From Patescibacteria group bacterium (GTDB lineage: Archaea; Nanobdellota; Nanobdellia; Pacearchaeales; GW2011-AR1), in the NCBI GenBank assembly GCA_051269935.1, contig JBNMFJ010000001.1, positions 1 to 45,929 on the forward strand: 45,929 nucleotides of DNA. The letters run 5' to 3'. Each line of letters opens with the position of its first letter. Position 1 is the first letter of the stretch. The notes under the pieces were generated by a model. It saw nothing but the letters and a program-made list of their open reading frames with translations, ran no database searches and was not told the origin of the DNA. Positions 7,355 to 21,112 of the stretch are shown one piece after another. The position numbers and the translations under genes were made by a program.

Positions 7355-8350
7355 TTACTTTTTGCAGAAAGCTAATATTTTAGACTTATCTTCAGAGCAA
7401 TGTTGATGTACTTGTCCGAAGTGCATATTGAGGAATGTTAATAATTCACTTTTTTCATATTTATAAGCTACAGCAACAATTATTTTCTCTTCTTTTTTGA
7501 AAAGGATCTTTTTATCTTGAAAGCTAATTTTTTTGTCAGACAATAAAGTAAAATAAATTTCAATTCTTTTATTCCTAAAACGTGCCTGAAATTTTACATC
7601 CTTGGCATCTAATCCAATTTGTAAAGGAATATGAACTAAAAATTTATAAAAATTCTTATTATTTGCATATGATTTTGCTCGTTCGCTCTGTTTATTATCA
7701 TTTATGGCTGCATCAACAATAAAAATATCATTATGTCTCATTGAACTTCGAATTTCATATAAAAATTCATTAATTTCAAAATTACCCAATGTATTACCAA
7801 ATAGTAATATTACATTTTTTTGAAACTTCCCTTTTCGTAACAAGGGTGTGATATTCTCTAAATTCTCAAAATCTGAAATATTATATTGAAATTCAACAAC
7901 TTCTTTTATATCTGCATTAGAGAATGTTTCAATAGCTTTCTCAACCAGGTAACCACTAATGTCAATGGGACAATATCTTATTTTCCCAGGAATTTTACTT
8001 TTAATAAGGTCAATAATTTTTTTACCCTTTATTCCATCACCGCATCCTAGATCGATAATGTTAACATTATCATCCCCAATCATATCTATTAATTCATGAG
8101 CATATTGGGCAACTAAATCTTCATGATGGCGTTGACCTATTTGATTTTTATATTCATTATCCTTATCTAAGTCCAAATATCCCTTCGCTTGCTCAGGCGT
8201 TAAATACCACAATTTCGAATCAGCAATATTCCAAACTTTCTTCCCATCCTCCAAAGCACAGCCACGCTTGATTAGTTCCTTAAAGATTAAGTCATTGATC
8301 CCTGTATTACCAGATTCGGTGGATTGGGTGTCTTTTTTTCCTGTTTCCAT
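7355..8350 (-). CDS. class I SAM-dependent methyltransferase (EgtD/Methyltransf_33-like)
   Basis: IIDLGCGDGIKG (motif I), YCPIDIS, LLFGNTLGNF, as in the EgtD-type histidine N-methyltransferase family. Substrate unknown. Confidence 0.6.
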   Translation of the reverse strand: METGKKDTQSTESGNTGINDLIFKELIKRGCALEDGKKVWNIADSKLWYLTPEQAKGYLDLDKDNEYKNQIGQRHHEDLVAQYAHELIDMIGDDNVNIIDLGCGDGIKGKKIIDLIKSKIPGKIRYCPIDISGYLVEKAIETFSNADIKEVVEFQYNISDFENLENITPLLRKGKFQKNVILLFGNTLGNFEINEFLYEIRSSMRHNDIFIVDAAINDNKQSERAKSYANNKNFYKFLVHIPLQIGLDAKDVKFQARFRNKRIEIYFTLLSDKKISFQDKKILFKKEEKIIVAVAYKYEKSELLTFLNMHFGQVHQHCSEDKSKILAFCKK

Positions 8351-8511
8351 AAAGGGAAAGCGTAATTTTCTTTTTTATGTGTTGTGTTATCATTTAAGGA
8401 TTACTAAGTAGTGACGCCGCTGTAGATAGTTTTATTAAGGCGTGTTTTCTTCTATATTTTGTGCTTTTTGGTGTTATAGATATCTCTATATTTTCTTTCT
8501 TAAATAGCAAC

Positions 8512-8523
8512 CTTTTTAAATTG
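8512..8523 (+). promoter_or_regulatory. TATA-like box upstream of tRNA-Glu(UUC)
   Basis: CTTTTTAAATT centred about 27 nt upstream of the tRNA 5' end. Confidence 0.4.
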
Positions 8524-8544
8524 AAATCTGTGAATATATATTAT

Positions 8545-8617
8545 GCCCTTGTAGTCTAGTGGCCAAGGATGCTGCCCTTTCACGGCGGTGACCCGGGTTC
8601 AAATCCCGGCGGGGGCG
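8545..8617 (+). tRNA. tRNA-Glu (anticodon UUC), intron-less, CCA not encoded
   Basis: Hand-folded cloverleaf: acceptor GCCCTTG/CGGGGGC, anticodon stem CTGCC/GGCGG, loop CTTTCAC, T arm CCGGG-TTCAAAT-CCCGG. Confidence 0.9.
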
Positions 8618-8619
8618 TC

Positions 8620-8630
8620 TTATTTTTTTA
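8620..8630 (+). terminator. T-tract (T7) immediately after tRNA-Glu
   Basis: TATTTTTTTA directly 3' of the discriminator base. Oligo-T tracts act as archaeal terminators. Confidence 0.35.
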
Positions 8631-8732
8631 GATTATTTCTTAGGATATATGTCTAGAGAGTAGATTGGGTTTATTCGGGATTTGGTATGAACACTATATA
8701 CATTTATAACAAAGAGTATTTACTGAAGTACT

Positions 8733-9929
8733 ATGCATGCTAATCAACATAAAATCCACTTTTATTTGAATAGAAATTTGGGGTTGTTATATACATCAAA
8801 TATAATAATAAACGCGGCGAAGGCATTCTTTAGTTTATTTATACCTATTTTCTTGTATAAGGAATTGCTATTTCCATTGTGGTTAGTTATTCTTATTTAT
8901 GGACTTCAGATTTTGTTATATGGATTAAGTATTCATTTTGGCTATAAACTAGCGATTCGTTTTGGAGTTAAAAGAGTATTTGCACTTGGTGTGTTATTCA
9001 ATGCGGTTGCTATAGTTTTTCTATTATTTGCAAAATCTAATCCACTGTATATTATACCTTTTTCTTTTTTTATTATTTTGAATTGGGCACTATATTATCC
9101 TGCTTCTGGTATTGATGAAGTAGTGTTTACTATTAAAAAAGCCCGTGCTAGGGAAGATAGTTTTATACGAGCAATAGGGCTTGGGATTAGTGCTATTATT
9201 CCATTTTTGTCAGGAGTTTTAATCTATTATTTTGGCTTTACTATTCCATTTATTATTGCCATTATATTATCTATTCTGAGTGCTATACCAATTTTATATT
9301 CAAAGGATAAGCATAATATCGGAGCGAATTATTCCCTAAAAAGTAGCCTTGCATTTTTTAGATCTTATAAGAATAAAAAAGAGTTTGTCGCGTATGTTGC
9401 AGATGGATTTAGGACGGGGAATTTGGAATTGTTTTGGCCGCTTTTGATTTTTATATTTATACCTAGTTATGTAGTACTTGGAGGAATTACCACAATTGTT
9501 ATTGCACTAAGCGTAATATTAACTATAGTGATAGGTAAGGTTATTGATAAGAATGGTCCAAATAAATATTTAAAAATTGGGACATATGGTGAATCGGTTA
9601 GTTGGGGATTAAAAGCATATCTTTGGGTGTTAACTGTAGTTACGAGTTTTCATATATTACTTATTAGTATAGTGAATAATATTACAAGTATTTTCTTTGG
9701 AATGAGTATGAATAAAATAGTTCTAGATCATGCAGATAATAAAGATACAATTGTGGAATTTCTTTTTTTACAAAAGTTTGCTCGTCAGATAGGATCTAGT
9801 ATTCCTTTTATTATTTTTGCATTCTTTGCATTTTATATGAAGGATCCTGAACAAATTATTATTATATCATTTATTCTTATGTCCATTGCAACTTTAGCTT
9901 TTCCATATGTATTGGGTAAGGATACATAA
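8733..9929 (+). CDS. multi-pass membrane protein, MFS-like transporter
   Basis: 398 aa, roughly 10-12 hydrophobic helices with a central hydrophilic loop. No diagnostic motif, so the family call is tentative. Confidence 0.5.
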   Translation: MHANQHKIHFYLNRNLGLLYTSNIIINAAKAFFSLFIPIFLYKELLFPLWLVILIYGLQILLYGLSIHFGYKLAIRFGVKRVFALGVLFNAVAIVFLLFAKSNPLYIIPFSFFIILNWALYYPASGIDEVVFTIKKARAREDSFIRAIGLGISAIIPFLSGVLIYYFGFTIPFIIAIILSILSAIPILYSKDKHNIGANYSLKSSLAFFRSYKNKKEFVAYVADGFRTGNLELFWPLLIFIFIPSYVVLGGITTIVIALSVILTIVIGKVIDKNGPNKYLKIGTYGESVSWGLKAYLWVLTVVTSFHILLISIVNNITSIFFGMSMNKIVLDHADNKDTIVEFLFLQKFARQIGSSIPFIIFAFFAFYMKDPEQIIIISFILMSIATLAFPYVLGKDT

Positions 9930-9945
9930 ATTAAGTTGTGGTTAC

Positions 9946-10112
9946 AGTATCTCCGCTGTTTATACATAAACATCGGAGCACTGGGATATTCTTTGGAAAG
10001 AAAAAATATTTTTGCGTTTTCTGCCCCACATGTCATACCAACTAGGCATAAACCAGAAAACGCCTATCTTTCATACTTAACTTAGAAGTAGCATAAACTC
10101 AGCGGAGATACT
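9946..10112 (+). mobile_element. MITE-like element copy 1 (167 bp) with 13-bp perfect terminal inverted repeats AGTATCTCCGCTG / CAGCGGAGATACT
   Basis: About 95 percent identical to 27443-27610. Flanked by GGTTAC / GGTTAT, a possible 5-6 bp target duplication. Intergenic. Confidence 0.7.
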
Positions 10113-10125
10113 CGGTTATCCGTTA

Positions 10126-10356
10126 CTATAATATATTTTTGATTGTTTGATAATATATATTTAATCTTGATATTTCGATTATTGCGGCTGTTGAATATAC
10201 TAGGTATTTTGCGGTGTATTTTGCCATTGTATATTGTATTTTATTTGTTGTATTTTGAGGTTCTATTCTTCCTTCCAAATCTATTTTTCTTGCGAACTTG
10301 ATAACTGACCCTGGTGTTGCTATTGTTTTGATGATATTTCTGGTTGAATCTTCCAT
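10126..10356 (-). CDS. hypothetical small protein (76 aa), doubtful
   Basis: ORF track only; no motif. Confidence 0.3.
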   Translation of the reverse strand: MEDSTRNIIKTIATPGSVIKFARKIDLEGRIEPQNTTNKIQYTMAKYTAKYLVYSTAAIIEISRLNIYYQTIKNIL

Positions 10357-10390
10357 ACTTCTTTATAATTAGGTGAACTAATAAAGAAGT
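10357..10390. promoter_or_regulatory. perfect 10-bp-stem hairpin ACTTCTTTAT-N14-ATAAAGAAGT upstream of the Ubl/E1/JAB operon
   Basis: Read directly. Followed by TGCC, resembling the GAAAGTTGGC end of the hairpin-core inserts. Confidence 0.4.
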
Positions 10391-10457
10391 TGCCTATTAT
10401 TGAAACTGTTTCATTTATGAGGACCTGATTAAAGTATCTTATTTTTATCAATTTAAT

Positions 10458-10712
10458 ATGGGAATAGTAAAAAAACTAACAACTGGATTTGTTGTGTATA
10501 CTGCGGCGGTGTTCGGAGCGGGATATGCTCTGCGTGGTTGCTCTTCGATTGATATTAACTCTAGGATTGATTCATTGCAGGAGAATTATATCCATGATGA
10601 TTATACTGATCCATTTACTTTGAAGACAAAGGCTTTGAGAGATTATGAAGCTTCTTCAGATAGGTTACGAGATAATTATGAAAAGTTTAAGGGAGGGCCT
10701 GTAGATGAGTGA
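10458..10712 (+). CDS. small N-terminally anchored protein (84 aa), lipobox-like LRGC; first gene of the operon
   Basis: Hydrophobic N-terminus FVVYTAAVFGAGYALRGCSS followed by a charged helical tail. Overlaps the next gene by 8 nt. Confidence 0.55.
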   Translation: MGIVKKLTTGFVVYTAAVFGAGYALRGCSSIDINSRIDSLQENYIHDDYTDPFTLKTKALRDYEASSDRLRDNYEKFKGGPVDE

Positions 10713-11802
10713 TGATTTATCTTATGAAGGGTCTATTGATTTAGATAAAAGGATTTCTGATTTGGGATATGAATTAGCTCCTAAAGATACATATGATGTT
10801 GGGGCTCGGAAATCTCCTGATTCTTTTTTGGATAGTTTGAGGCGTTCTAGAAGTGGTGATGGTATTGCACGGGGGCGTTCTGCTCGAAAGTATGGGATGA
10901 ATGATATTAGTAGTATGGTTGAGGAAATTAGCTATAATAATAGGACCATTGAACATGCTGTAAGGCGTGAAGTCCTTGGTACTAAAAATGATTGGAAAAG
11001 TAAGGTTTCTTATGCGTTAACTCATTTTGGGTCTAAATCTGATATGCCTGTTGAAAATATTTTTGAGGAACAAATTGGAAGAGTTCGTTCTGTTGATGAT
11101 ATGCTTTCTTCGTATAATGCTCAGTTAGATCAGCGAATTGATAGATTGCAGAAAAGACATCAAATTTTAGTTGGAGCAGCTGTTGAGAAATATGAGAATA
11201 ACTCTGTATTAAAAACGGGATTGCAAGAGAAGAAGTCTTTGCTTGACGATTTATCTCAAAGTGTTGATGCTTTGGGTAATGATGATTTGGCTATGGCTGA
11301 GAGAATGAAGTATATGGGAATTATGAGAGAATTACGTCGAGACATTTCTCATGGTGTTCATAATGTTAATCGGAATGGAAATTACTTGACTTTGTTACGA
11401 AGAGAGATGCCTATTATTGAGAGTTTAAGTCAGGTTTCTGATGCGTATTCTTTTAGTATGAAGGAAATTAGTGATAATACTGAAATTTTGACAACTCATT
11501 TACAGAGTGTTGTTCCTTTATACTTAGATGTATTACGAAGTGAAGCAGGAGTCGGAAGGCTTCAGGGTGAGGTTCAAAAATTGTTTGGGTATACTTCTAA
11601 TTTAAGTGGGGCAGTTCAGGCGGGTAAGCAACGAATTGTTACTGGTGGTGAAGAGCATGGGCTTGTTCATTTAGAATTTGATCGAATTGAACGGGATTTG
11701 GATGGAGCACTTACTGATGTTGAGGAAGCTACTTTTGGACAGTTAGATAGATTAGAGAATCAATTGTATACTAAGCATACTGATGAAAGGAGGTTGAAAT
11801 AA
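10705..11802 (+). CDS. hypothetical helical/coiled-coil protein (365 aa), operon member
   Basis: ORF track; GGAGGG 7 nt upstream inside the preceding gene. No motif recognised. Confidence 0.65.
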   Translation: MSDDLSYEGSIDLDKRISDLGYELAPKDTYDVGARKSPDSFLDSLRRSRSGDGIARGRSARKYGMNDISSMVEEISYNNRTIEHAVRREVLGTKNDWKSKVSYALTHFGSKSDMPVENIFEEQIGRVRSVDDMLSSYNAQLDQRIDRLQKRHQILVGAAVEKYENNSVLKTGLQEKKSLLDDLSQSVDALGNDDLAMAERMKYMGIMRELRRDISHGVHNVNRNGNYLTLLRREMPIIESLSQVSDAYSFSMKEISDNTEILTTHLQSVVPLYLDVLRSEAGVGRLQGEVQKLFGYTSNLSGAVQAGKQRIVTGGEEHGLVHLEFDRIERDLDGALTDVEEATFGQLDRLENQLYTKHTDERRLK

Positions 11803-11804
11803 AC

Positions 11805-12215
11805 ATGGATTATGATAAACCAATAGTGCGATTACGAAATAATGAGAATGCTAATGGAGGTTTAATGTATAATTTATCTCAGGATCTTGTAGATGGTTCC
11901 TTGAATAATTTAATTGAGTATTCATCGTGTCAAGAAAATTTTAGAGCTCTTGAACCAACAGAGAATTCTGTTGTTAATTATATTAATTCTTCACTTTCTC
12001 GAGGAGTCCCTTATAATATTAGAGCCTTTGAATCACCAGATCGTCTTTCTCCATCTATTAATTTAAGTGATCGTTTAAGTGTAGTTACTCAAAAATATAT
12101 GAGACCCAGTTCTATTCTAAATGATGCTGGAGAAGAAATTAGATTTAATGAGTTGGATTTAGTATTTACTTCCCAAGAAGTGGGTGGATTGTATTTACCA
12201 AATTATTTGTCTTAA
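11805..12215 (+). CDS. candidate ubiquitin-like modifier precursor (136 aa) ending ...LDLVFTSQEVGG-LYLPNYLS
   Basis: Small protein immediately upstream of the E2-like, E1-like and JAB genes. Di-glycine (12183-12188) is followed by an 8-residue tail, and the preceding hydrophobic-alternating strand resembles the ubiquitin ...LHLVLRLRGG end. The fold is not verifiable by eye. Confidence 0.45.
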   Translation: MDYDKPIVRLRNNENANGGLMYNLSQDLVDGSLNNLIEYSSCQENFRALEPTENSVVNYINSSLSRGVPYNIRAFESPDRLSPSINLSDRLSVVTQKYMRPSSILNDAGEEIRFNELDLVFTSQEVGGLYLPNYLS

Positions 12216-12223
12216 TGACATAG

Positions 12224-13669
12224 GTGTTATTTCGTTTTATTATGGCAGATCTTGCGACAAAGAGTAGAGTAGATTATTCGAGGCATACAGATTCTAATCC
12301 TAGAAGTGTTAAAAACATGGATCGTGAATATAAGAGAAATATTCAGATTTTAATGGAATCTCAATCTTTGTCGCAAGACTATTCTTTTGATGAGGTAGCT
12401 TTTACTCCATCATCCTGCGCGTTTGAATCTTTATTACAGAATAGATTTTGTCTTTTTGGACCTCAACATTCTTATGTTTTGTCAAAGGGAAAAAATGAAG
12501 GAGAGAAAATTCCAGTTCTCTATCATGGGACTAGATATTATTTTCAACCATCTCATTCTTATTCTGAGATTGAATCTACCTTAATGGATTCGATGTCTTC
12601 TGATATATCTATGTATAGGGGGAAATGTGTAGATACGTTAAAGAATAAATCTTCTAGTGTTAATGATTTAGTGAATACATATTCAGATAGACTATCTGGG
12701 AAATTTAGTGATATGGAGAATGTGTGTAATTCTTTGTTGTTAATGAATTATGATCAATTTGAAAATGGTATGAATGCTGAACAAAAAAAGATTGTTGCTT
12801 CAATTGCAAAACAATCTGACTTGATTAATTCTCTTTCTTTTGAGTCACAATTTTCTTCTCCTAATATATTGGAGAAATACATCTCATCACATTTACCTAA
12901 TTCTGATGACTTATTGTTGCGTATTGATAATGATTTTTATACCATTTTTTCAGGAAATGAGGTTATTGATTTAAATTCCCTTGCATTTGAGAAAACATTT
13001 ACATATGAAGATTTGCATTCTCATTATTTAAAGGAATTTTCCCGTCTTGTTCACTCAGAGGTCGCTGATTCTTTGAATGATGTTGTTGTAAAACTAGGGG
13101 ATATGGAAAAATCATTTAGCACACTCGATTCATTATCTCGTGAAGCTACGGTAGCGAATAAAAAGTTAGGAGCCTTTGGTTATGAATTACAAAGTGAATC
13201 ATCTGCTTGTATGTTTAAGGATATTGACTCTTATATTATTAAGAAAAAAGGGGATCATTATCTTTTTCCAAAGGCAAGAATTGGAACACAAATTAGAAAA
13301 AATAATGATGGGTCTGCCGCTATCGTTGAGACGCCTCCATATGTAATAGGTCATTATCCACATTCTTTTATGAGAAAAGAATCTTCTGGTAAAAGTTATT
13401 TTTGCTTTGGCGATATAAACTTTGCAAATATTTGTTCTCAAACATATCAACCTTTAGATAGTTCTCATTTTCCTGTATTACATAATGATGCAGTTCTTTC
13501 GATTGGAACGCTAGAAAATGTTTTGAAGTTTGGGTTTCGCGCGGATTATCATCCTCATCGATATCTTAATCCACAAAATTTTGCTACCAATCATATTTCA
13601 CTATCTCGAGTGAATGAATTGTCAACTAAGGGAATTGAAATTTGTGATAATGATAGGAGGGATACATAA
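12224..13669 (+). CDS. large protein (481 aa) with candidate UBC/E2-like C-terminal domain
   Basis: C-terminal segment ETPPYVIGHYPHSFMRKESSGKSYFCFGDINF resembles the UBC core PP-x-V...HPN...G-x-x-C. Candidate catalytic Cys is TGC at 13403-13405. GTG start at 12224, alternative ATG at 12242. N-terminal ~350 aa unknown. Confidence 0.5.
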   Translation: MLFRFIMADLATKSRVDYSRHTDSNPRSVKNMDREYKRNIQILMESQSLSQDYSFDEVAFTPSSCAFESLLQNRFCLFGPQHSYVLSKGKNEGEKIPVLYHGTRYYFQPSHSYSEIESTLMDSMSSDISMYRGKCVDTLKNKSSSVNDLVNTYSDRLSGKFSDMENVCNSLLLMNYDQFENGMNAEQKKIVASIAKQSDLINSLSFESQFSSPNILEKYISSHLPNSDDLLLRIDNDFYTIFSGNEVIDLNSLAFEKTFTYEDLHSHYLKEFSRLVHSEVADSLNDVVVKLGDMEKSFSTLDSLSREATVANKKLGAFGYELQSESSACMFKDIDSYIIKKKGDHYLFPKARIGTQIRKNNDGSAAIVETPPYVIGHYPHSFMRKESSGKSYFCFGDINFANICSQTYQPLDSSHFPVLHNDAVLSIGTLENVLKFGFRADYHPHRYLNPQNFATNHISLSRVNELSTKGIEICDNDRRDT

Positions 13670-15030
13670 TGACTCATATTGAATCTCAGCATGATCGGCA
13701 AAATAGAATTACCGGTTTTGATCAGAATGCAATTTCAAATACTAAAGTGTGTATTTTGGGAAATAATCTTGCTTCTCAATTGGTTCTTGCTAGTAGTGTT
13801 GCTATGGGCTTTGGAGATATCACTCTATTGGATAATCAAAAATCAGCTAAGGGTGATATTGATATATTTTATCCTTCATGGCCGTTTGTTGGACATGATA
13901 GATCACAGACTATTGCTTATAATGCAGGCAAGATAGATGAGAATATTAGCGTAAAAGGATATTCTAGTTTGTTTAATCCACACGATATTGGTGTGATGTA
14001 TGAGAAGCCTGATGTGATTATTGACTTGACTCAAGATAAAAATTTGAAGGAAGAATCTTTAGTATATGCAAGTAGAGAGGGCATATCCTATGTTAGTGGT
14101 TTTATTAATCATTCCCAAGGGCAAGTTTCTGTATATGATTCTAAACGACAAAACTATAATGATATTTTATTGCCTAAGGGAGATTTTGATTCTATTACTG
14201 ATCCGGGTATTATTCCTTCTGGTGTTTCTTCAGGAATTATTATGGATGAGATTCGTAAAAATTTATTTAGATATAATGATTTTGATTTGCCTTTAACTGA
14301 TCCCTTTGTATATAATCTTTTATCTTCATCTCGAAGTTCCCCTGATAATGATGTAGAATTTATTAAAAGTCGATTGGATGAACGAATATTGGTAGCTGGT
14401 GCTGGGGCTATTGGTACTTATGTTGCTCTTGGATTAGCTTATTCTTGTTTTAATAATTTTGATATTCTTGATTGTGATGATGCTGAGAAAACGAATTTGA
14501 ATCGGCAAATTTTGTATTATGATTCTTTGGGTGAACATAAGGCTAAGGCGTTAAGTACAAAACTTGAAGAGTTGACTACTGTAAAACCAAAATTTCATGA
14601 TATGAGAATAGATGAGAATTCTCTTGATTTTATTAGGGATCAAGGGTATACCACTTTATTTGGATGTTTCGATAATATGAATGCACGATTCTATCTCAAT
14701 GATATTGCTAAAGAATTAGGAATTAATTATATTGATGGCGGGAGTAGTCCTCATGGTGGTAAGGTTGTTAATTATATTACTGAAACATATTCATGTGTTG
14801 GTTGTACTAAAAATTTGACATTGGAGGATAAGAGTTATGGTTGTGCGAGAGAGCCAGACGCAAGTATTATTAACTCTAATATGCTTGTAGGAAGTACTAT
14901 GGTTGGAGAACTTTATCATAATAATGGAGAATCCTCTGTTCCGTCTTTATCTTATTCTCAACAGGAAGAGCCAAGGATTAAAGTAAATTTTGAGGTATCT
15001 CCACAAGAAAATTGTGGATGTAAGATATAA
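13669..15030 (+). CDS. E1-like (ThiF/MoeB/UBA superfamily) adenylating enzyme with tandem degenerate + active Rossmann domains
   Basis: C-terminal half: ILVAGAGAIGTYVALGL (GxGxxG, 14398-14415), DILDCDDAEKTNLNRQ (NLNRQ at 14494-14508), FDNMNARFYLN, IDGGSS, CVGC ... CGC. N-terminal half has the same layout but degenerate motifs (KVCILGNNLASQ, LLDNQKSAKGD). TAATG overlap with the upstream gene. Confidence 0.85.
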   Translation: MTHIESQHDRQNRITGFDQNAISNTKVCILGNNLASQLVLASSVAMGFGDITLLDNQKSAKGDIDIFYPSWPFVGHDRSQTIAYNAGKIDENISVKGYSSLFNPHDIGVMYEKPDVIIDLTQDKNLKEESLVYASREGISYVSGFINHSQGQVSVYDSKRQNYNDILLPKGDFDSITDPGIIPSGVSSGIIMDEIRKNLFRYNDFDLPLTDPFVYNLLSSSRSSPDNDVEFIKSRLDERILVAGAGAIGTYVALGLAYSCFNNFDILDCDDAEKTNLNRQILYYDSLGEHKAKALSTKLEELTTVKPKFHDMRIDENSLDFIRDQGYTTLFGCFDNMNARFYLNDIAKELGINYIDGGSSPHGGKVVNYITETYSCVGCTKNLTLEDKSYGCAREPDASIINSNMLVGSTMVGELYHNNGESSVPSLSYSQQEEPRIKVNFEVSPQENCGCKI

Positions 15031-16727
15031 TGGGATTTTTTAATTTTTTTACGGATAAACAGGAATCAGTTTCTACTCCTAATTTTAGTTATTCTTCATC
15101 TTATTTAACTGAGGATGCGCGTAATTTTACTTTTATGGGGACTCGTCCTTATAGTTTGGAAGAGTGTTTACGTCAAAGAGAGACTGTTTTTCCTGATCAT
15201 GTAGTGAGAAAAATTGCTGCTGAGTTTTCTATGACTGATAGAATGCTTTATTTTGAGGGAAAAAATCATGTAATAGATTCTAAAAAATCTCGACATGCAG
15301 TTGTTACTTCAGGAATTAATTCGATATTGGATTCAGATGATAGATACCAGGAATCTGAACGAGAAGCTGATCGTGTCTATAAGTCTAGGATTACATCTTT
15401 ATTACATTCTAGCCATAAGGCTGGTGTTGAAGACTATATATCTAAAAATGTAGAAGCGGTACCTCAGTTACATTCCATTAAGATCACTCAAGAAGCAATG
15501 GATAAGGCGAATTTGATTGCCAAGAGGATGGTTAATGCATCGAAGACTCCTGATGAAATTTATTTTCATATGCTTAGTGGAAAAGATGATACCGATTTTG
15601 TGATTAGAGATATTTATATTCCTCGTCAGGCTGTAACACCATCATTGTGTTCTACTGACCATCAATATTATGGTATGGATGATTTTGAAATAGAGAAGTC
15701 AGGTTATAAAAATATTGCATGGGGACATTCTCATGGACATCATGATGTCTTTTTTTCAGGAACTGATCATACTAATATTAATGCTAATAATGATTTGTAT
15801 CCATCATTTACATTACCTTTTGATTCGTATTCGGGTAAAAATATTAATGTTCATGCTATGCCTTGTTTGGTTTTTAATGCTCTGAATGCCTCTCCTGCTA
15901 AAAGAATTGGAGTTGCCTATACATCTTTATTTGGAGATCTATTTGAACGATATGATAATAAAACTCCCAATCTTGATATTATTTCTGAGTCTAATGGTAT
16001 TGATATGACTATTGATTCTATAGATAAAATGATTTATAATAGAGTTACTACACCTCGTGGTTTTAAGAATAGTTTTGAGGAAAATATGTTTGAGAAGTAT
16101 GGCGAGATAATCCGAGGAGATTCTGGTGCTTATTCTGAAAAAGTTCGAATACAAAGGGAAAATGATGTAGAATACAAGGCCAATCTTTCTCGATTGTTTG
16201 GACAGAAAGTTGTGAATCGTGTAGTACCTCTATCTGAATCGGAAACTCCTGCAGAAGATATAACTCCTGCTCCAACTCAGAATGAATTTGGTGTTGATAC
16301 TTTTTTCTCTTCTAATTATATAGTCAATAATTCTGGGTATCGACATTCAGTAGATTCTAACGGGAATATTGATCTTTCTGATGTTGATATGGGATCTGAT
16401 AAGGTTCAAGTGCGTGGATATTCATATGATAATTTAGAAACCTTTTCGGTTGATACGAATAATGATCCTTATATGCAAAATCGATTTATGGGTTATGATG
16501 CTCCGTTTATTCATGATATAGATTTTGAAAATATGGCTACTGAGGGGACTTCTGAAACAAATGCTATTGATGATTACTTTGTCTCGCGTTCTGAATATAA
16601 TGCTTTACAGGATAGGCATGATGTATTGCGGGAAGAGGTTGATGGGTTAGGTGATCGATTGGGCTCTTTGAAAAAGAGTGTGAAATATCTTGGAGGGTTG
16701 TATAATAAATGGAGAGACAAAGATTAG
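15030..16727 (+). CDS. JAB/MPN+ (JAMM) metallopeptidase domain protein with long N- and C-terminal extensions (565 aa)
   Basis: Exact JAMM signature AWGHSHGHHDVFFSGTD, i.e. H-S-H-x7-S-x-x-D (15726-15767), with an upstream Glu candidate in PDEIYFHML. TAATG overlap with the E1 gene. Confidence 0.85.
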   Translation: MGFFNFFTDKQESVSTPNFSYSSSYLTEDARNFTFMGTRPYSLEECLRQRETVFPDHVVRKIAAEFSMTDRMLYFEGKNHVIDSKKSRHAVVTSGINSILDSDDRYQESEREADRVYKSRITSLLHSSHKAGVEDYISKNVEAVPQLHSIKITQEAMDKANLIAKRMVNASKTPDEIYFHMLSGKDDTDFVIRDIYIPRQAVTPSLCSTDHQYYGMDDFEIEKSGYKNIAWGHSHGHHDVFFSGTDHTNINANNDLYPSFTLPFDSYSGKNINVHAMPCLVFNALNASPAKRIGVAYTSLFGDLFERYDNKTPNLDIISESNGIDMTIDSIDKMIYNRVTTPRGFKNSFEENMFEKYGEIIRGDSGAYSEKVRIQRENDVEYKANLSRLFGQKVVNRVVPLSESETPAEDITPAPTQNEFGVDTFFSSNYIVNNSGYRHSVDSNGNIDLSDVDMGSDKVQVRGYSYDNLETFSVDTNNDPYMQNRFMGYDAPFIHDIDFENMATEGTSETNAIDDYFVSRSEYNALQDRHDVLREEVDGLGDRLGSLKKSVKYLGGLYNKWRDKD

Positions 16728-18106
16728 TTTCTTTAGAATCTGCTGTTGATGGACATTTGTTTAAAGAAGTTGTTTTAGGGGGTGAGTTTGAATCTGAATA
16801 TGCAAGTATGACATCTGAGAATTATGGGTTGAGTGATCTAATGGCTTATTCTTATTTGCAGTCTCATGTCTCACGGGCAAAGTCGTTAAGAGATGAGTCT
16901 GAGTCGGGACCATATAAAGTGGATTTTTCGGATCCTTATGGGACAGCTAAAGAAGTATTATCTCTGTTTGATACTGGAGTTGCTCTTTTGTCTCCTGTCT
17001 CAAGCGCTATGCAGAATATGGCTGTGTCTTCTGCTCAGGAATATATTTCACAGGAAATGCTGTTAGCTATAGATGAGCCCAGTAAAACTTTGGATGATTG
17101 TTGTGTATATGCTCTGATTGATTATTTTTATAGATCTTTGAAACCAGAGAGGCAGGATCATTTCTTGAGAACAGCAAATGGGAGAAATTTAGTTGATAAT
17201 TTGCAGAGGGTTTCTCTTCATCATGTGTATATGTCAGGGGTTAAGGAGTTTGCCAAGAAGAATATAGAATTGGCTGGTTATATTGCTGAATTAAGTAATG
17301 AATCTTATAAGTTTACTTCTAACGAGATTTCTCGGAATTCTTTGTTGGAGACTGAGAATTTGCAAGCTGTTCCAGCTGATATTGATATGTGGTTTAGTGC
17401 CGTGATGTCTGATAGAATTTCTTTGAGGGATGAGTTTCTTTCTAAGCGACATTCTCTATTATCTAATAAGATTGCTAAATATGATGATGATTTTGCTTTG
17501 TATTCTAAGAATTATGATATTGTTTCCCGGAGGGATTTGCCGACTGCAAAGGACATTACTATTTTATCTAGTAATAGTAAGGGTTTAGATGAGGAGGTTA
17601 CATTTTATTCGACATTAGGTGGTTATGATGATAAAATTAGTTCAAGGGCCAAATTACAACAAGGTATTACTTCTCGTTTAACTCAATATGAAATATATAA
17701 GAATAATATTGGGCGTGTTGTTAATTTTGAGAAACTATTAGATGTGAATATTGAGAAAAAAATGTTAGACTCAAAGAATCCTCTTGGTGCTCTTGGTAGT
17801 ATGATTGCTAATGTGAAACAGGAAAGATCTAATCTTTCATCTTTGCGTGTGAATCCTTATTTGAAGGCGGTAATATCTCCATTGGATGAGGCAACATTGA
17901 AATATTATCGAACTAGTGCTCAGGTTGTTGCTGATTTAGCTGTTGCTGTTTCTCAAAAATTTAATGAGGTAACAAATAAATATGAATCATTGCCATTTTA
18001 TAAAAAGCCATTTGGTTATTTTGCATATGATACTCAAAGTAATGAATTGATATCCTCTTTAGAAAGACTTGAAGATTTCTCAGATAAGATTCCCAAGAGC
18101 TTGTAG
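16709..18106 (+). CDS. hypothetical helical protein (465 aa), last tightly coupled operon member
   Basis: 19-nt overlap with the JAB gene; GGAGGG 11 nt upstream. No motif recognised. Confidence 0.65.
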   Translation: MERQRLVSLESAVDGHLFKEVVLGGEFESEYASMTSENYGLSDLMAYSYLQSHVSRAKSLRDESESGPYKVDFSDPYGTAKEVLSLFDTGVALLSPVSSAMQNMAVSSAQEYISQEMLLAIDEPSKTLDDCCVYALIDYFYRSLKPERQDHFLRTANGRNLVDNLQRVSLHHVYMSGVKEFAKKNIELAGYIAELSNESYKFTSNEISRNSLLETENLQAVPADIDMWFSAVMSDRISLRDEFLSKRHSLLSNKIAKYDDDFALYSKNYDIVSRRDLPTAKDITILSSNSKGLDEEVTFYSTLGGYDDKISSRAKLQQGITSRLTQYEIYKNNIGRVVNFEKLLDVNIEKKMLDSKNPLGALGSMIANVKQERSNLSSLRVNPYLKAVISPLDEATLKYYRTSAQVVADLAVAVSQKFNEVTNKYESLPFYKKPFGYFAYDTQSNELISSLERLEDFSDKIPKSL

Positions 18107-18140
18107 ATAAATTTATATATCTCTATTTTAGGATTATTTT

Positions 18141-18422
18141 ATGTTTGATAAATTAGAAAAATCATTAGAGGAAAAGGTTGTTAGTTGGAAGGTTGTTTCA
18201 AAAAATGAAATATATAGAAAGAGTGAAAATGGGAAAAGTACTTATAGAATTTGTTTGCAAAGTGAAGATATCCATATAGATGGAATGATTCGTTATAAGA
18301 AGGTTGATGAAGAGACTTATTCTATAACAAAAGTTCTCTCAATAGTAAATTATACAATGTATTCTAATAATAAAACATCTTGGTTTTTTGATGAAAAAAT
18401 GGCAAGAAAAAATAAAAAATAA
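18141..18422 (+). CDS. hypothetical small protein (93 aa)
   Basis: ORF track, same strand, 35 nt downstream of the operon. No motif. Confidence 0.4.
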   Translation: MFDKLEKSLEEKVVSWKVVSKNEIYRKSENGKSTYRICLQSEDIHIDGMIRYKKVDEETYSITKVLSIVNYTMYSNNKTSWFFDEKMARKNKK

Positions 18423-18446
18423 AAAAAGAGTAAGATCTAAATATTA

Positions 18447-18707
18447 TTAATATTTAGGGTTCTTGGAAGCTTTGAAAGTGAATGCCTTTCGTGCAGATAT
18501 TCTAATCTTAGCACCAGTTGCAGGGTTTACACCATTTCGTGCCTTTTTCTTTACTTCTTTAAAAGTTCCGAATCCGACTAATTGTACGGGTGCTTTCTTA
18601 GCGTTTTTATATACAGTCTTTAAAACTGATTCTAAAACTTCACCAGCTTTTGCCTTAGTTAGGCCTGTGTCTTTTACGACAGCTTCGATTAATTGAGCTT
18701 TATTCAT
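18447..18707 (-). CDS. HU/IHF-family (bacterial-type) DNA-binding protein
   Basis: MNKAQLIEAVV...GFGTFKEVKKKARNGVNPATGAKIRISARKAFTFKAS. Typical HU length (86 aa), with the arm motif R-x-G-x-NP-x-TG. Confidence 0.9.
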   Translation of the reverse strand: MNKAQLIEAVVKDTGLTKAKAGEVLESVLKTVYKNAKKAPVQLVGFGTFKEVKKKARNGVNPATGAKIRISARKAFTFKASKNPKY

Positions 18708-18861
18708 TGTGTGTCATCCTCCCTTCTGAAGCTATAATGAATAAATCTCTTTATAAATATTGCTTACACTTTTGATCAAAATGTCTTTTTATTTGTTGAA
18801 TAATGTTTTTTTGATATTCCTCAAGGGATATACTTATAAATAAATTATCTATCAAAAAAAT

Positions 18862-19518
18862 ATGCCAATACATCAAAATGAAAAATATGCGGTAAAATGT
18901 GTATATAGATTAATTCCAGAGGATGATTCCTTAAGTGGGTTCTTAAAAATTGATACAGAGAAGATAATCCCAGGAAGATCTCAAGTGAGGAAAACACTCG
19001 ATAATGTTTCTTTTCCTATTACGTTACATAGAGAAGGAGGTTTAGAAGTTAATCAAAGTGGGTATTATATCGGGACTTCTGATTCTTTAGTTGAGTATTT
19101 TGAAAGATATACAGCAGCTCAAATAGTTATTGATGGAAATTATAATGGAAGAAATAAGCAAGAAGCTACTTCAAAAAATGGATCTGCAAAATATCTTGTT
19201 CCATTGGAAACATATAAGCTGACGGCAAATAAGGAGTCATTTCTACCTTTTATCTATAATGGATTATTAGAAAAGAGACATACGCTTGATTTGAATTTAA
19301 TGGAATTTACTATTGGATATATGTCTTCTCAACTAGGGGCGAGAATGCTCAATCCATTCCCTTTTACTTTTACAGATGTGGTTAAGGAAAGAGGTTCTTT
19401 TTACGGAGGATCATTTAGATTTATAACATCAGGATCTATGAATTTACCTGAATCAAAAATTTGGGAAATTCCTTTAGATGAGTTGTCTGAAGATATGAAA
19501 GAATATTGGAAAACTTAA
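18862..19518 (+). CDS. hypothetical protein (218 aa)
   Basis: ORF track; no motif recognised. Confidence 0.5.
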   Translation: MPIHQNEKYAVKCVYRLIPEDDSLSGFLKIDTEKIIPGRSQVRKTLDNVSFPITLHREGGLEVNQSGYYIGTSDSLVEYFERYTAAQIVIDGNYNGRNKQEATSKNGSAKYLVPLETYKLTANKESFLPFIYNGLLEKRHTLDLNLMEFTIGYMSSQLGARMLNPFPFTFTDVVKERGSFYGGSFRFITSGSMNLPESKIWEIPLDELSEDMKEYWKT

Positions 19519-19525
19519 CAATGAT

Positions 19526-21112
19526 TTATTTGTTGAATAATGATTTCTTTCGTAATAATCTGTTGTAGGTTATTGCGAATCTGTGGGCTTCGTCTCTAAT
19601 TTGCTGAAGTAAAAGTCTTCCTTTGTTCTTGTCTGAGAGTCGGATTGCTTCTGAACTTCCTGGTACAAATATTTCCTCGAATTGTTTAGCGAGGCTGATT
19701 ATTGGAATTTTTAGGTTAAGTGAGTCCAGAGCTTTGAGGGCTGCGTTGAGTTGGCCGATTCCTCCGTCAATGATTATGAGGTTTGGGAGTGATAGATTTT
19801 CATTTTTAAGTTTGGTATATCTTCTTTTTACGACTTCTTCCATTGATGCGAAGTCGTCGTTTTGGAATACTGTTTTCATCTTGAATCTTCTATAATTGCT
19901 TTTATCGGGTTTTCCGTTTCTGAATTGAACCATTGATGCGACTATGTGAGTTCCTGATAGGTGAGAGATGTCGAAACATTCCATTACGATTGGAAGCTCT
20001 TGGAGGTTTAATCTGTTTTGTAATATTTCTAGTTTTTCTGTTTCAGCAAAGAATGCTATTTCAATGTTCTTTTCAACAAGATCTAATAGGGCCTTTTTTT
20101 CTCCTATTTTGGGAACTATTGTTTCGACTTTTGTTTTGTATTTATGGGTTAGATATTTTGCAATTATCGGACTTACTTGTTTTGGGATAATTATGTATTT
20201 TGCTTGTTTGTCTTTTGGTATTGTTGTTTCTGAATAGTATTGGGCTAGGAAGTCTTCTAAAAAGTTTTCCCTTTCTTCGAATATAAACTCTTGTTTGTTC
20301 TCGAGGGTTCCTCTGTAGATGTTAAATATGAGGAGGTATACCTTTCCTTTTTTGACAATGTAGTTAATTATGTCTTCGTTATATTTTTTGTCTCGTATTA
20401 CGTTTTGTTGTTCGTTGAGATAATCTAAGGAGTTGATTTGGCTTCTATATTGTAGGGCTCTTTCGAAGTCTTGTTTTTTTGATGCTTTTTGCATTTTTTC
20501 TTTTAGCATCTTTATTACATCTGCACTTTTCCCTTTGAGGACTTTTTTGGCGGAATTTACATCTTCATTATAATCTTCTTCTGATATGGCTTTAATGCAT
20601 GGTGCACTGCAGAGATTGATGGCATGTCTGAGGCAGGCTTTCTTGGGCAGTTTTCTACATGTTCGGAGTTTGAAAGCTTTATTGATTACTTGGAGGATAT
20701 CATCTCGTGCTCGTGCTGAGGTGAATGGTCCGAATCTGTATGTGTTTTTTGTGTGTAATCTTGAGATTAGGAATCGTGGGTATTTTTCTTTTGTGAGGTC
20801 TATATATGCATAGGATTTTGAATCTCTTAGGCTGATGTTATATTTTGGTTTATGTTTTTTGATTAATGTGTTTTCGAGCATAAGGGCTTCTATCTCATTT
20901 TTGGTTATCATGAAGTCGACGGATTTTATGTGTCTTACTAAGACTTTTGTTTTTTCGTCATGATCATTTTTGGTGAAGTAGGAAGTTACTCGCTTTTTGA
21001 GGTTTTTGGCTTTTCCTACATAGATTATATTTCCTGAAGAATCTTTGTAGAGGTAGCAGCCTGGCTCTGTTGATACGGTGGTTAGGTCGATTGGGTGGGT
21101 TTTGGCTGCTAT
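19526..21112 (-). CDS. uvrC: excinuclease ABC subunit C (UvrC). GIY-YIG domain lies upstream of the ORF-track ATG, and the start codon is not canonical.
   Basis: ORF track part carries the UvrC core and C-terminal (HhH)2-like end. The same frame stays open to 21124 and encodes EPGCYLYKDSSGNIIYVGKAKNLKKRVTSYF (GIY-YIG). No ATG/GTG/TTG between 20912 and the in-frame stop at 21125-21127, so the 5' end is set provisionally at ATA 21110-21112. Confidence 0.8.
   Translation of the reverse strand: MAAKTHPIDLTTVSTEPGCYLYKDSSGNIIYVGKAKNLKKRVTSYFTKNDHDEKTKVLVRHIKSVDFMITKNEIEALMLENTLIKKHKPKYNISLRDSKSYAYIDLTKEKYPRFLISRLHTKNTYRFGPFTSARARDDILQVINKAFKLRTCRKLPKKACLRHAINLCSAPCIKAISEEDYNEDVNSAKKVLKGKSADVIKMLKEKMQKASKKQDFERALQYRSQINSLDYLNEQQNVIRDKKYNEDIINYIVKKGKVYLLIFNIYRGTLENKQEFIFEERENFLEDFLAQYYSETTIPKDKQAKYIIIPKQVSPIIAKYLTHKYKTKVETIVPKIGEKKALLDLVEKNIEIAFFAETEKLEILQNRLNLQELPIVMECFDISHLSGTHIVASMVQFRNGKPDKSNYRRFKMKTVFQNDDFASMEEVVKRRYTKLKNENLSLPNLIIIDGGIGQLNAALKALDSLNLKIPIISLAKQFEEIFVPGSSEAIRLSDKNKGRLLLQQIRDEAHRFAITYNRLLRKKSLFNK

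What the first reader, a model, noticed from the sequence alone, without database searches (positions are those of the whole stretch)
12224..13669. Oversized E2 candidate: UBC-like catalytic segment at the end of a 481-aa protein
Seen: ...FPKARIGTQIRKNNDGSAAIVETPPYVIGHYPHSFMRKESSGKSYFCFGDINFANIC... near the C-terminus. Established: canonical UBC domains read ...F-x-x-x-YP-x-x-PP-x-V-x-F...HPN(I/V)-x3-4-G-x-IC-x-D. Here the PP-x-V, H-P-H and G-x-x-x-x-C elements appear in the same order with a slightly longer HP-to-Cys spacer (Cys codon 13403-13405). Inference: an E2-like thioester carrier fused to a ~350-aa N-terminal region of unknown function, possibly substrate recognition that would replace an E3.
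Basis: partly seen in the sequence, partly recalled or inferred. Interest (0 to 1): 0.6.

Follow-up and report, generated by a model that had tools for sequence, protein, structure and literature searches.

The report
Divergent E2-like enzyme, archaeal ubiquitin-like operon
This gene from a tiny-genome (DPANN) archaeon most likely encodes the carrier (E2-type) enzyme of an undescribed ubiquitin-like protein-tagging operon, but its link to known E2 enzymes rests on a weak sequence-profile signal and conserved His/Cys residues, not on a confirmed fold.

Summary
The quoted peptide and the Cys codon (13403-13405, C394) are in the sequence. The ORF is 481 aa from GTG 12224, or 475 aa from ATG 12242. 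It lies between a 136-aa GG-tailed Ubl-like gene and a two-domain ThiF-type E1 followed by a JAMM peptidase. The same neighbourhood recurs in DPANN archaea (Woesearchaeota, Nanoarchaeia, Aenigmatarchaeota).

In 48 homologues Y378 and H380 are invariant and C394 is kept in 47. It is the only invariant Cys in the aligned cassette families outside E1.

Pfam, NCBIfam, PADLOC, PHROGs and PDB sequence searches gave no meaningful match. Foldseek with two confident AlphaFold models found no E2 in the 50 best hits shown and no significant hit at all.

A profile-profile comparison with canonical E2s does align the HP motif, the Cys and the long helix in register; the Pro after the helix aligns only in lower-confidence, looser runs. 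Its score (21.5-26.5) exceeds all 300 shuffles. It lies just below UFC1, a true divergent E2 (28-30).

My verdict is an E2-type carrier of an undescribed archaeal Ubl cascade (about 0.7), possibly a very divergent UBC core (about 0.5). The roughly 300-residue N-terminal part has no assigned role. This scan has met the same operon type before on other DNA.

The parts
12224..13669 (+). E2-like ORF. 481 aa from GTG 12224; the probable start is ATG 12242 (475 aa). The TAA stop overlaps the ATG of the E1 gene.
12242..13144 (+). N-terminal region (about residues 7-307). It has a conserved SRIxxLLE-type motif and two beta-hairpin-plus-long-helix modules that weakly match each other. Its function is unknown.
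   Evidence: AF2 secondary structure; alignment A1; weak internal HMM matches
13145..13666 (+). C-terminal domain (residues 308-481): beta-meander, Y-x-H-P-F motif, Cys, long helix, conserved Pro, short helix. This is the candidate catalytic core.
13355..13369 (+). Y378-P-H380-S-F382, the family motif Y-x-H-P-F. Y and H are invariant in 48/48 homologues.
13403..13405 (+). C394, the candidate thioester cysteine. Kept in 47/48 homologues; the exception is a second paralogue in locus L039.
13553..13555 (+). P444, a conserved Pro after the long helix (38/48). In the lower-confidence part of the first hhalign run and in a looser (mact 0.1) run it aligns with a Pro of the E2 P-N-P-D-D-P segment after helix alpha2; the better-scoring run with the larger E2 profile ends before it.
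11805..12215 (+). 136-aa Ubl-like precursor. GG lies at residues 127-128 (12183-12188), followed by the tail LYLPNYLS.
   Evidence: Alignment A3: G127 invariant, G128 in at least 90%, tails of 1-12 residues. 17-18 of 21 in the larger set.
13669..15030 (+). Two-domain ThiF-type E1 (N-terminal half about 17-174, active half about 236-417). Zn cysteines C376/C379 (14794-14805) and C449/C451 (15013-15021). Invariant crossover-loop C392 (14842-14844).
15030..16727 (+). 565-aa JAMM/MPN+ peptidase. HSHGHHDVFFSGTD at 15726-15767. E176, H233, H235, S243 and D246 are invariant among 7 orthologues.
10705..11802 (+). 365-aa accessory protein, kept with the cassette only in the closest relatives. It has no conserved Cys.
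10458..10712 (+). 84-aa protein with a hydrophobic N-terminus. First gene of the cassette; poorly conserved.
16709..18106 (+). 465-aa accessory protein and last gene of the cassette. It has no family match and no conserved Cys.

Best explanation
The protein is the E2-type carrier of a ubiquitin-like conjugation cassette found in DPANN archaea.

Proposed path:
1. The JAMM peptidase trims the 8-residue tail of the 136-aa Ubl precursor to expose Gly-Gly.
2. The two-domain E1 adenylates that C-terminus and takes it onto its crossover-loop Cys (C392).
3. The Ubl is passed to C394 of this protein. C394 lies 14 residues after the invariant Y378-x-H380-P-F motif in the C-terminal domain.
4. From C394 the Ubl is transferred to target lysines.

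The roughly 300-residue N-terminal part (helical and beta-hairpin modules) would serve oligomerisation or target choice.

The catalytic core may be a very divergent UBC-type core: an extended beta-sheet, Phe instead of the HPN Asn, and an insertion-prone loop after the Cys.

Shown here: gene order, conservation, the E1 and JAMM motifs, and the sub-threshold profile similarity. Inferred: every chemical step, the targets and the fold class.

I give about 0.7 to the E2 role and about 0.5 to true UBC homology.
For: Context:
- Ubl-like gene with a conserved GG plus tail directly upstream.
- ThiF E1 directly downstream (Pfam 1.5e-36, two ThiF halves), with an invariant Zn Cys4 and crossover Cys.
- JAMM peptidase with an intact E...HxH...S..D motif.
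- The same neighbourhood in 9 of the 11 metagenomic homologue contigs examined (ThiF is confirmed on six, and several contigs end inside or before the next gene).
- The family sits beside the E1 in 14 of 20 named archaeal tandem-E1 loci by HMM, plus 3 by motif.

Residues:
- Y378 and H380 in 48/48, C394 in 47/48.
- No other aligned cassette family has an invariant Cys, apart from E1 and one nearly invariant Cys in the JAMM protein; the Ubl-like protein's cysteines were not tabulated.
- The His-to-Cys spacing is 9-19, and 8 members have the canonical 10. One example is L035 HPFVYSNGTIC against UBE2D2 HPNINSNGSIC.

Profile-profile (hhalign):
- The family against 13 E2/UEV sequences scores 25.4 (P 0.0016).
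- H380 falls on the HPN His, C394 on the catalytic Cys and the long helix on alpha2; P444 falls on a post-alpha2 Pro only in low-confidence or looser alignments.
- 0 of 150 column shuffles and 0 of 150 block shuffles reach it (maxima 20.7 and 19.3). The reversed profile scores 12.2 and five unrelated cassette families score 12.6-15.5.
- UFC1, a true HPN-less E2, scores 27.9-30.1 against the same profile.

The AF2 secondary-structure order from the PPxV strand onwards matches UBC.
Against: - Foldseek with the full model (pLDDT 78) and the domain model (pLDDT 80, core above 90) gave no E2/UBC/UEV/RWD among the 50 best hits shown in PDB or BFVD, and no hit better than E 0.02. A real UBC fold is usually found easily.
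- No Pfam, NCBIfam, PADLOC, PHROGs or PDB sequence match of any meaning.
- The hhalign probability is only 6-21%, and the score fell from 25.4 to 21.5 when the family profile grew from 30 to 48 sequences.
- The model has about seven strands before the His motif, against four in UBC.
- The HPN Asn is absent.
UBE2D2, UFC1 and TSG101 were verified; the others were not.
- There is no biochemical evidence.
Confidence: 0.6

Rival explanations
1. The role is the same (Ubl thioester carrier or ligase), but the fold is new and unrelated to UBC. The HP...C resemblance to E2s would then be convergent or accidental.
For: Foldseek found no E2 and nothing significant with two confident models. No HMM matches. 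The beta-sheet is larger than in UBC. The hhalign signal is sub-threshold and does not grow with more sequences. A sister cassette (L034) carries a different Cys family with H-x7-C in the same slot, so the slot tolerates unrelated carriers.
Against: In the hhalign alignments the PPxV strand, the HP motif, the Cys and the long helix fall in the E2 order and register, and in the looser runs so does the Pro after the helix. The score is above all 300 shuffles and near that of UFC1. The minimal His-Cys spacing equals the canonical 10.
Confidence: 0.2
2. The protein is not a carrier. It would be an adaptor, scaffold or dedicated substrate of the cascade, with the conserved His and Cys acting as structural or metal-binding residues. 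The E1 would then conjugate directly, as in E2-independent archaeal sampylation.
For: Archaeal SAMP/UbaA systems work without an E2 (established knowledge; PMC2948915 reviews archaeal Ubl genes). The long helical, coiled-coil-like N-terminal half looks like a scaffold. No catalytic Asn is present.
Against: A single invariant Cys with an invariant His 9-19 residues upstream, in nearly every member across very divergent sequences of about 20% identity, is typical of an active site. Two ligands are too few for a metal site. The E1 is the two-domain conjugation type, and its best PDB matches are UBA2 and UBA3.
Confidence: 0.1
3. The protein is a Cys/His hydrolase (a second deconjugase), or a persulfide/sulfur-transfer protein in a Ubl-type sulfur-carrier pathway of the CysO/Mec+ or QbsE/QbsD kind.
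For: His plus Cys could form a dyad. JAMM-trimmed Ubl carriers with ThiF enzymes exist in sulfur-transfer pathways (established knowledge).
Against: No desulfurase, radical-SAM, CysM, MoaE or ThiG gene appears in the window cassette or in the related loci whose neighbours were scanned. The E1 has no rhodanese domain. A His-to-Cys spacing of 9-19 fits none of the Cys-peptidase clans I considered, and no peptidase appears in the Foldseek or Pfam output. A JAMM peptidase is already present.
Confidence: 0.07

Closest known systems
Bacterial Bil (BilABCD, Type I/II) ubiquitination-like antiphage operons (PMC10557695)
   Same: One operon holds a Ubl precursor trimmed by a JAMM peptidase, a Cys protein in the E2 slot, and an E1 with an inactive plus an active adenylation domain. 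The E1 has a Zn site made of two crossover-loop Cys and a C-terminal CxC, and there is no E3.
   Different: The host is archaeal (DPANN). The E1 has no inserted helical CYS domain; its Cys lies 13 residues after the CxxC. The E2-like protein is 475-481 aa and matches no UBC model. Its order is His then Cys, whereas BilB has Cys138 then His151. Extra accessory proteins of 84, 365 and 465 aa are present. The function is untested.
Canonical UBC-fold E2 enzymes (e.g. UBE2D2; Pfam UQ_con PF00179)
   Same: The order is PPxV strand, (Y)HP motif, Cys 10 or more residues later preceded by Ile/Leu, an aromatic residue after the Cys, a long helix, then a conserved Pro. There is a weak but above-null profile similarity in that register.
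   Different: There is no HMM match and no Foldseek match. Phe replaces the HPN Asn. The predicted beta-sheet is larger, there is no clear alpha1, and a 300-aa N-terminal extension is attached.
UFC1, the HPN-less E2 of the UFM1 pathway
   Same: It is an E2 that lacks HPN and is only weakly similar to the UBC profile (hhalign 28-30, against 21.5-26.5 for this family with the same template).
   Different: UFC1 has a solved UBC fold and is about 167 aa, a single domain. The fold of this family is unconfirmed.
Eukaryote-like archaeal ubiquitin operons (Caldiarchaeum subterraneum, Asgard; PMC5654768)
   Same: An archaeal operon with a Ub-like modifier, an E1, an E2 and a JAMM (Rpn11-like) peptidase.
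   Different: Those E2s are recognisable UBC proteins and come with a RING E3 and true ubiquitin. Here neither the modifier nor the E2-like protein matches any model, and no RING is present.

Membership tests
UBC/E2 superfamily (Pfam UQ_con, Prok-E2_A-E, UEV, RWD) | Significant match to a UBC-type sequence model | tested here: not met
   There was no UBC-type hit for the window protein or for any of 19 full-length or 12 domain-only homologues at E up to 1-10. PDB profile searches were empty of E2s. PF00179 was not found in the genome.
UBC/E2 superfamily (Pfam UQ_con, Prok-E2_A-E, UEV, RWD) | UBC alpha/beta fold (alpha1, four-stranded meander, crossover helix alpha2, alpha3/4) | tested here: inconclusive
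   The AF2 secondary-structure order from the PPxV strand onwards agrees with UBC. Foldseek against PDB and BFVD lists no E2 among the 50 best hits shown and nothing significant. Model coordinates could not be inspected.
UBC/E2 superfamily (Pfam UQ_con, Prok-E2_A-E, UEV, RWD) | Conserved Cys about 10 residues after a conserved His-Pro that follows the last sheet strand | tested here: met
   H380 is in 48/48, Pro after it in 46/48 and C394 in 47/48. The spacing is 9-19, and 8 members have 10.
UBC/E2 superfamily (Pfam UQ_con, Prok-E2_A-E, UEV, RWD) | Asn of the HPN triad | tested here: not met
   Position 382 is Phe in 38/48 and otherwise A, L, S, H or G. It is never Asn in the sequences listed.
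UBC/E2 superfamily (Pfam UQ_con, Prok-E2_A-E, UEV, RWD) | Profile-profile similarity with hallmark residues in register | tested here: inconclusive
   hhalign scores are 21.5-26.5 (P 0.001-0.007, probability 6-21%). This is above 300 shuffles and 5 decoy families. UFC1 as a control scores 28-30 and the TSG101 UEV domain 38-40.
UBC/E2 superfamily (Pfam UQ_con, Prok-E2_A-E, UEV, RWD) | Forms a Ubl thioester received from an E1 | not testable with these tools
   This needs biochemistry.
Bil (BilABCD) systems | Operon of Ubl, E2, JAMM DUB and a two-domain (IAD+AAD) E1 | tested here: met
   Gene order and motifs. Both halves of the E1 match ThiF.
Bil (BilABCD) systems | E1 catalytic Cys on a mobile alpha-helical CYS-domain insertion | tested here: not met
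   The invariant C392 lies 13 residues after C379 of the CxxC, and only 57 residues precede the C-terminal CxC. There is no room for an inserted domain (feature taken from PMC10557695).
Bil (BilABCD) systems | BilB-type E2: small UBC fold with Cys followed by a conserved His (CEHH in Type II) | tested here: not met
   The order here is His then Cys. The protein is 475-481 aa and has no UBC hit. PADLOC gave no E2-type or defence-system match, only one weak JetC/MukB-like coiled-coil hit (E 0.0066).
Bil (BilABCD) systems | Antiphage function | not tested
   Only a patchy distribution was seen: 45 of 400 genomes of the phylum, 0 of 27 in the window's own family, several copies in some genomes. 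This is compatible with an accessory system but does not show defence.
E2-independent archaeal sampylation / Ubl sulfur-carrier pathways | Single-domain MoeB/UbaA-type E1 and sulfur-related biosynthetic partner genes, with no E2-slot protein | tested here: not met
   The E1 has two ThiF halves. No sulfur-pathway genes occur in the cassette or in the related loci whose neighbours were scanned. A conserved Cys protein is present.
Eukaryote-like archaeal Ub operons (Caldiarchaeum/Asgard) | Recognisable ubiquitin, UQ_con E2 and RING E3 | tested here: not met
   No Pfam match for the modifier or the E2-like protein, and no RING in the cassette. The A3 profile has no PDB hit.

The most novel reading that the evidence does not exclude
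This family is a previously uncatalogued, deeply divergent branch of the E2 superfamily, so far seen almost only in DPANN-type archaeal MAGs. Its catalytic core is permanently fused to a large target-recognition or oligomerisation module (an E2/E3 hybrid). It would drive a mobile, possibly antiviral, ubiquitin-like tagging system in organisms with genomes of about 1 Mb.
Probability: 0.3. Interest if true: 0.75.

Novelty: new variant of a known kind. Interest (0 to 1): 0.6.

Why it matters
Complete Ubl-E1-E2-peptidase cascades outside eukaryotes are known from a few bacterial defence systems (Bil, CBASS Cap2, Bub) and from a few eukaryote-like archaeal operons. A further cascade in DPANN archaea would widen the known range of ubiquitin-type chemistry. 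Its modifier and its E2-slot enzyme both escape every database model, while its E1 has the eukaryote-style two-domain layout. It would also give a compact, testable system in which target choice may be built into the E2 itself. In the full-text library I could search, I found no paper that describes it.

Tried and rejected
- The word-indexed homologue search found only the protein itself, and the profile version found one more. Exhaustive HMMER was needed to reach 18 homologues.
- The search for related loci with the domain alignment failed because no stretch was conserved enough. The E1 alignment was used instead.
- The last homologue search, with UBE2D2, returned only near-identical UBE2D proteins and gave no diverse E2 profile.
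- Foldseek of the whole model and of the domain model returned only insignificant beta-meander matches: Whirly, NDM-type beta-lactamases, DUF1089.
- A Ubl profile against ubiquitin-family sequences gave no signal (score 11.9). The beta-grasp nature of the 136-aa protein therefore rests on the GG tail and the sequence pattern only.
- I considered YkuD-type L,D-transpeptidase (His 16-21 residues before Cys), sortase and caspase-type His/Cys enzymes. I rejected them because the motif context and spacing differ and there is no Pfam or Foldseek support.
- A tRNA-linked integration was not shown. Relatives carry other genes between UvrC and the methyltransferase, so only 'variable region' can be said.

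Full report
**Observation.** The ORF at 12224-13669 (+) is real and contains the quoted peptide. Three small corrections apply. The 'H-P-H' is H377-Y378-P379-H380, not a contiguous triplet. The public gene call starts at ATG 12242 and gives 475 aa. About 85 residues follow the Cys, so the segment is not at the very end.

**Surroundings.** The gene is the fourth of seven tightly packed genes on one strand (10458-18106).
- The next gene (13669-15030) is a ThiF-type E1 (Pfam 1.5e-36; PADLOC 'E1-E2' 4e-14). Both of its halves match ThiF.
- Six orthologues share invariant C376/C379 and C449/C451, a Zn site of the kind described for BilD. They also share an invariant crossover-loop C392 (PMC10557695 read).
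- By sequence, the closest solved E1s are the conjugation-type UBA2 and UBA3.
- The following gene (15030-16727) carries HSHGHHDVFFSGTD. Its E176, H233, H235, S243 and D246 are invariant in 7 orthologues, so it is an intact JAMM peptidase.
- The gene just upstream (11805-12215, 136 aa) belongs to a family in which a Gly-Gly near the C-terminus is conserved and followed by a tail of 1-12 residues. In the window it reads ...QEVGG|LYLPNYLS. That is the signature of a Ubl precursor.
- None of the other aligned cassette families has an invariant Cys.
- The assembly (0.66 Mb, 77% complete) holds no other ThiF E1, no second copy of the family and no UQ_con match.

**Family and distribution.** No Pfam, NCBIfam, PADLOC, PHROGs or PDB sequence model gives a meaningful match.
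- Exhaustive HMMER over 1.8 billion representatives found 18 distant homologues, at E from 1e-20 to 5e-4 and about 20% identity.
- I examined 11 homologue contigs. In 9 the homologue lies next to a gene for a protein of about 135-141 aa upstream and a ThiF E1 (ThiF confirmed on six contigs), or an unsearched ORF cut off by the contig end, downstream. The other two contigs are too short, or carry different neighbours.
- A domain profile found the family in 45 of 400 sampled genomes of the phylum, in 44 of 280 genera. Some genomes hold several copies. It was not found in 27 genomes of the window's own family in that search, nor in 24 same-genus genomes searched with the full-length protein.
- Named records are Woesearchaeota, Nanoarchaeia/Nanoarchaeota and Aenigmatarchaeota MAGs, plus a few MAGs labelled Euryarchaeota or Methanosarcinales.
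- Of 20 loci with a full-length two-domain E1, 14 carry the family beside the E1 by HMM, and 3 more by the motif Y-x-H-P...IC.
- In two same-genus genomes the stretch between UvrC and the methyltransferase holds other genes, so the cassette is accessory here.

**Conservation.** In 48 family members Y378 and H380 are invariant. The residue after His is Pro in 46, F348 is kept in 46 and C394 in 47. The one exception is the second of two paralogues in locus L039. The His-to-Cys distance is 9-19, most often 14, and eight members have exactly the canonical UBC distance of 10. One example is HPFVYSNGTIC in L035 against HPNINSNGSIC in UBE2D2. The Asn of HPN is never present in the sequences listed; Phe dominates.

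**Fold test.** AlphaFold2 gave confident models with the 19-sequence alignment (pLDDT 78) and with a 12-sequence domain alignment (pLDDT 80, core above 90).
- The C-terminal domain is predicted as about seven beta-strands, the His motif, a short hairpin ending at the Cys, a variable loop, a 25-residue helix, the conserved P444 and a short helix.
- From the PPxV strand onwards this order is that of a UBC domain. The sheet, however, is larger than the four strands of UBC.
- Foldseek against PDB (both models) and BFVD (domain model) gave no hit better than E 0.02 and no E2, UEV or RWD among the 50 best hits shown.
Because nothing significant was found at all, the result is 'no recognised fold' rather than 'a different known fold'. 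I could not inspect the coordinates.

**Profile-profile test.** I compared the family profile with 13 canonical E2/UEV sequences using hhalign. UBE2D2 was confirmed by 100%-identical database hits, and UFC1 and TSG101 by PDB.
- The family aligned over 44-84 columns with score 25.4 (P 0.0016). H380 fell on the HPN histidine, C394 on the catalytic cysteine and the long helix on alpha2. P444 fell on a Pro of the PNPDDP segment only in the low-confidence tail of the first run and in a looser (mact 0.1) run.
- No column shuffle (150) or block shuffle (150) reached the score (maxima 20.7 and 19.3). The reversed profile gave 12.2, and five unrelated cassette families gave 12.6-15.5.
- With the same template, UFC1, a genuine E2 without HPN, scored 27.9-30.1, and the TSG101 UEV domain scored 38-40.
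- Three caveats apply. The hhalign probability is only 6-21%. The score fell to 21.5-22.8 with 48 sequences. The window sequence alone scores at null level, 14.7.

**Reading.** Context and conservation make an E2-type carrier role the best explanation; I put it at about 0.7. Whether the domain is a true, very divergent UBC core remains open, at about 0.5. The profile signal and motif geometry speak for it, and the Foldseek result and the larger sheet speak against. The rivals are a carrier on a new fold, a non-catalytic adaptor or substrate, and a hydrolase or sulfur-transfer protein. The last is weak because no sulfur-pathway genes accompany this subfamily.

The N-terminal 300 residues consist of a conserved SRIxxLLE-type motif and two beta-hairpin-plus-long-helix modules that weakly match each other. 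That they replace an E3 is only a conjecture.

**Comparison with known systems.** The closest known system is the bacterial Bil operon. Both have a Ubl precursor, a JAMM peptidase, a two-domain E1 with the same Zn arrangement, and no E3. The differences are the archaeal host, an E1 without the inserted CYS domain, a large and unrecognisable E2-slot protein with His before Cys, and extra accessory genes. It is neither a SAMP/UbaA system nor a Caldiarchaeum-type ubiquitin operon.

I found no paper describing it in the searchable library. Earlier reports of this same scan describe the same type of DPANN operon on other genomes. One of them covers what appears to be the same E2-slot family and also failed to place it among E2s. 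Those notes are leads and not evidence; what I tested here agrees with them and adds the calibrated profile signal.

Noticed in passing
L005:8001-10052 and L005:12931-14073: In a related contig, the N-terminus of the E2-like protein and the N-terminus of a downstream Peptidase_C13 (legumain-like) protein share a repeated peptide (RRKKSRIEILLERQ...). It corresponds to the conserved SRIxxLLE motif of the family (window residues about 36-48). It may be a shared docking peptide.
   Followed up: no
L039:2604-3197 versus L039:5701-6336: One locus holds two paralogues of the domain. One keeps ...EIC. The other reads ...TIDFSC, without the Cys at the aligned position, which may be a UEV-like inactive copy.
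   Followed up: partly
L034:5282-6996 and L034:8404-9264: A sister cassette (Ubl, JAMM, two-domain E1) lacks this family. It has instead three paralogous proteins of about 280-300 aa with a conserved H-x7-C (for example YRHAMDTTTDC) in the E2 slot. This resembles a helical Cys/His family that earlier notes of the scan describe.
   Followed up: partly
L045:6965-8302, L048:6956-8317: Divergent two-domain E1s have lost the CxxC and CxC zinc cysteines but keep the crossover-loop Cys (ASCAWERNPS). This fits a catalytic role for that Cys. Their E2-slot proteins read YKHPHVW...EICYG.
   Followed up: partly
window 8350-19526: The stretch between the methyltransferase (7355-8350) and UvrC (19526-20911) holds tRNA-Glu (8544-8619), an MFS transporter, the cassette and a 218-aa ORF. 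Two same-genus genomes have the same two flanking genes 3.7 and 8 kb apart with different genes between them, so this is a variable region.
   Followed up: partly
window 1-45929: GC skew is positive in every 2-kb window on the + strand (0.05-0.36), at about 33% GC.
   Followed up: no
window 12242-13144: The N-terminal half of the protein seems to contain an internal duplication: beta-strands followed by a long helix at about residues 75-159 and again at 230-306. The domain HMM's helix region weakly matches the N-terminal module in many homologues.
   Followed up: partly
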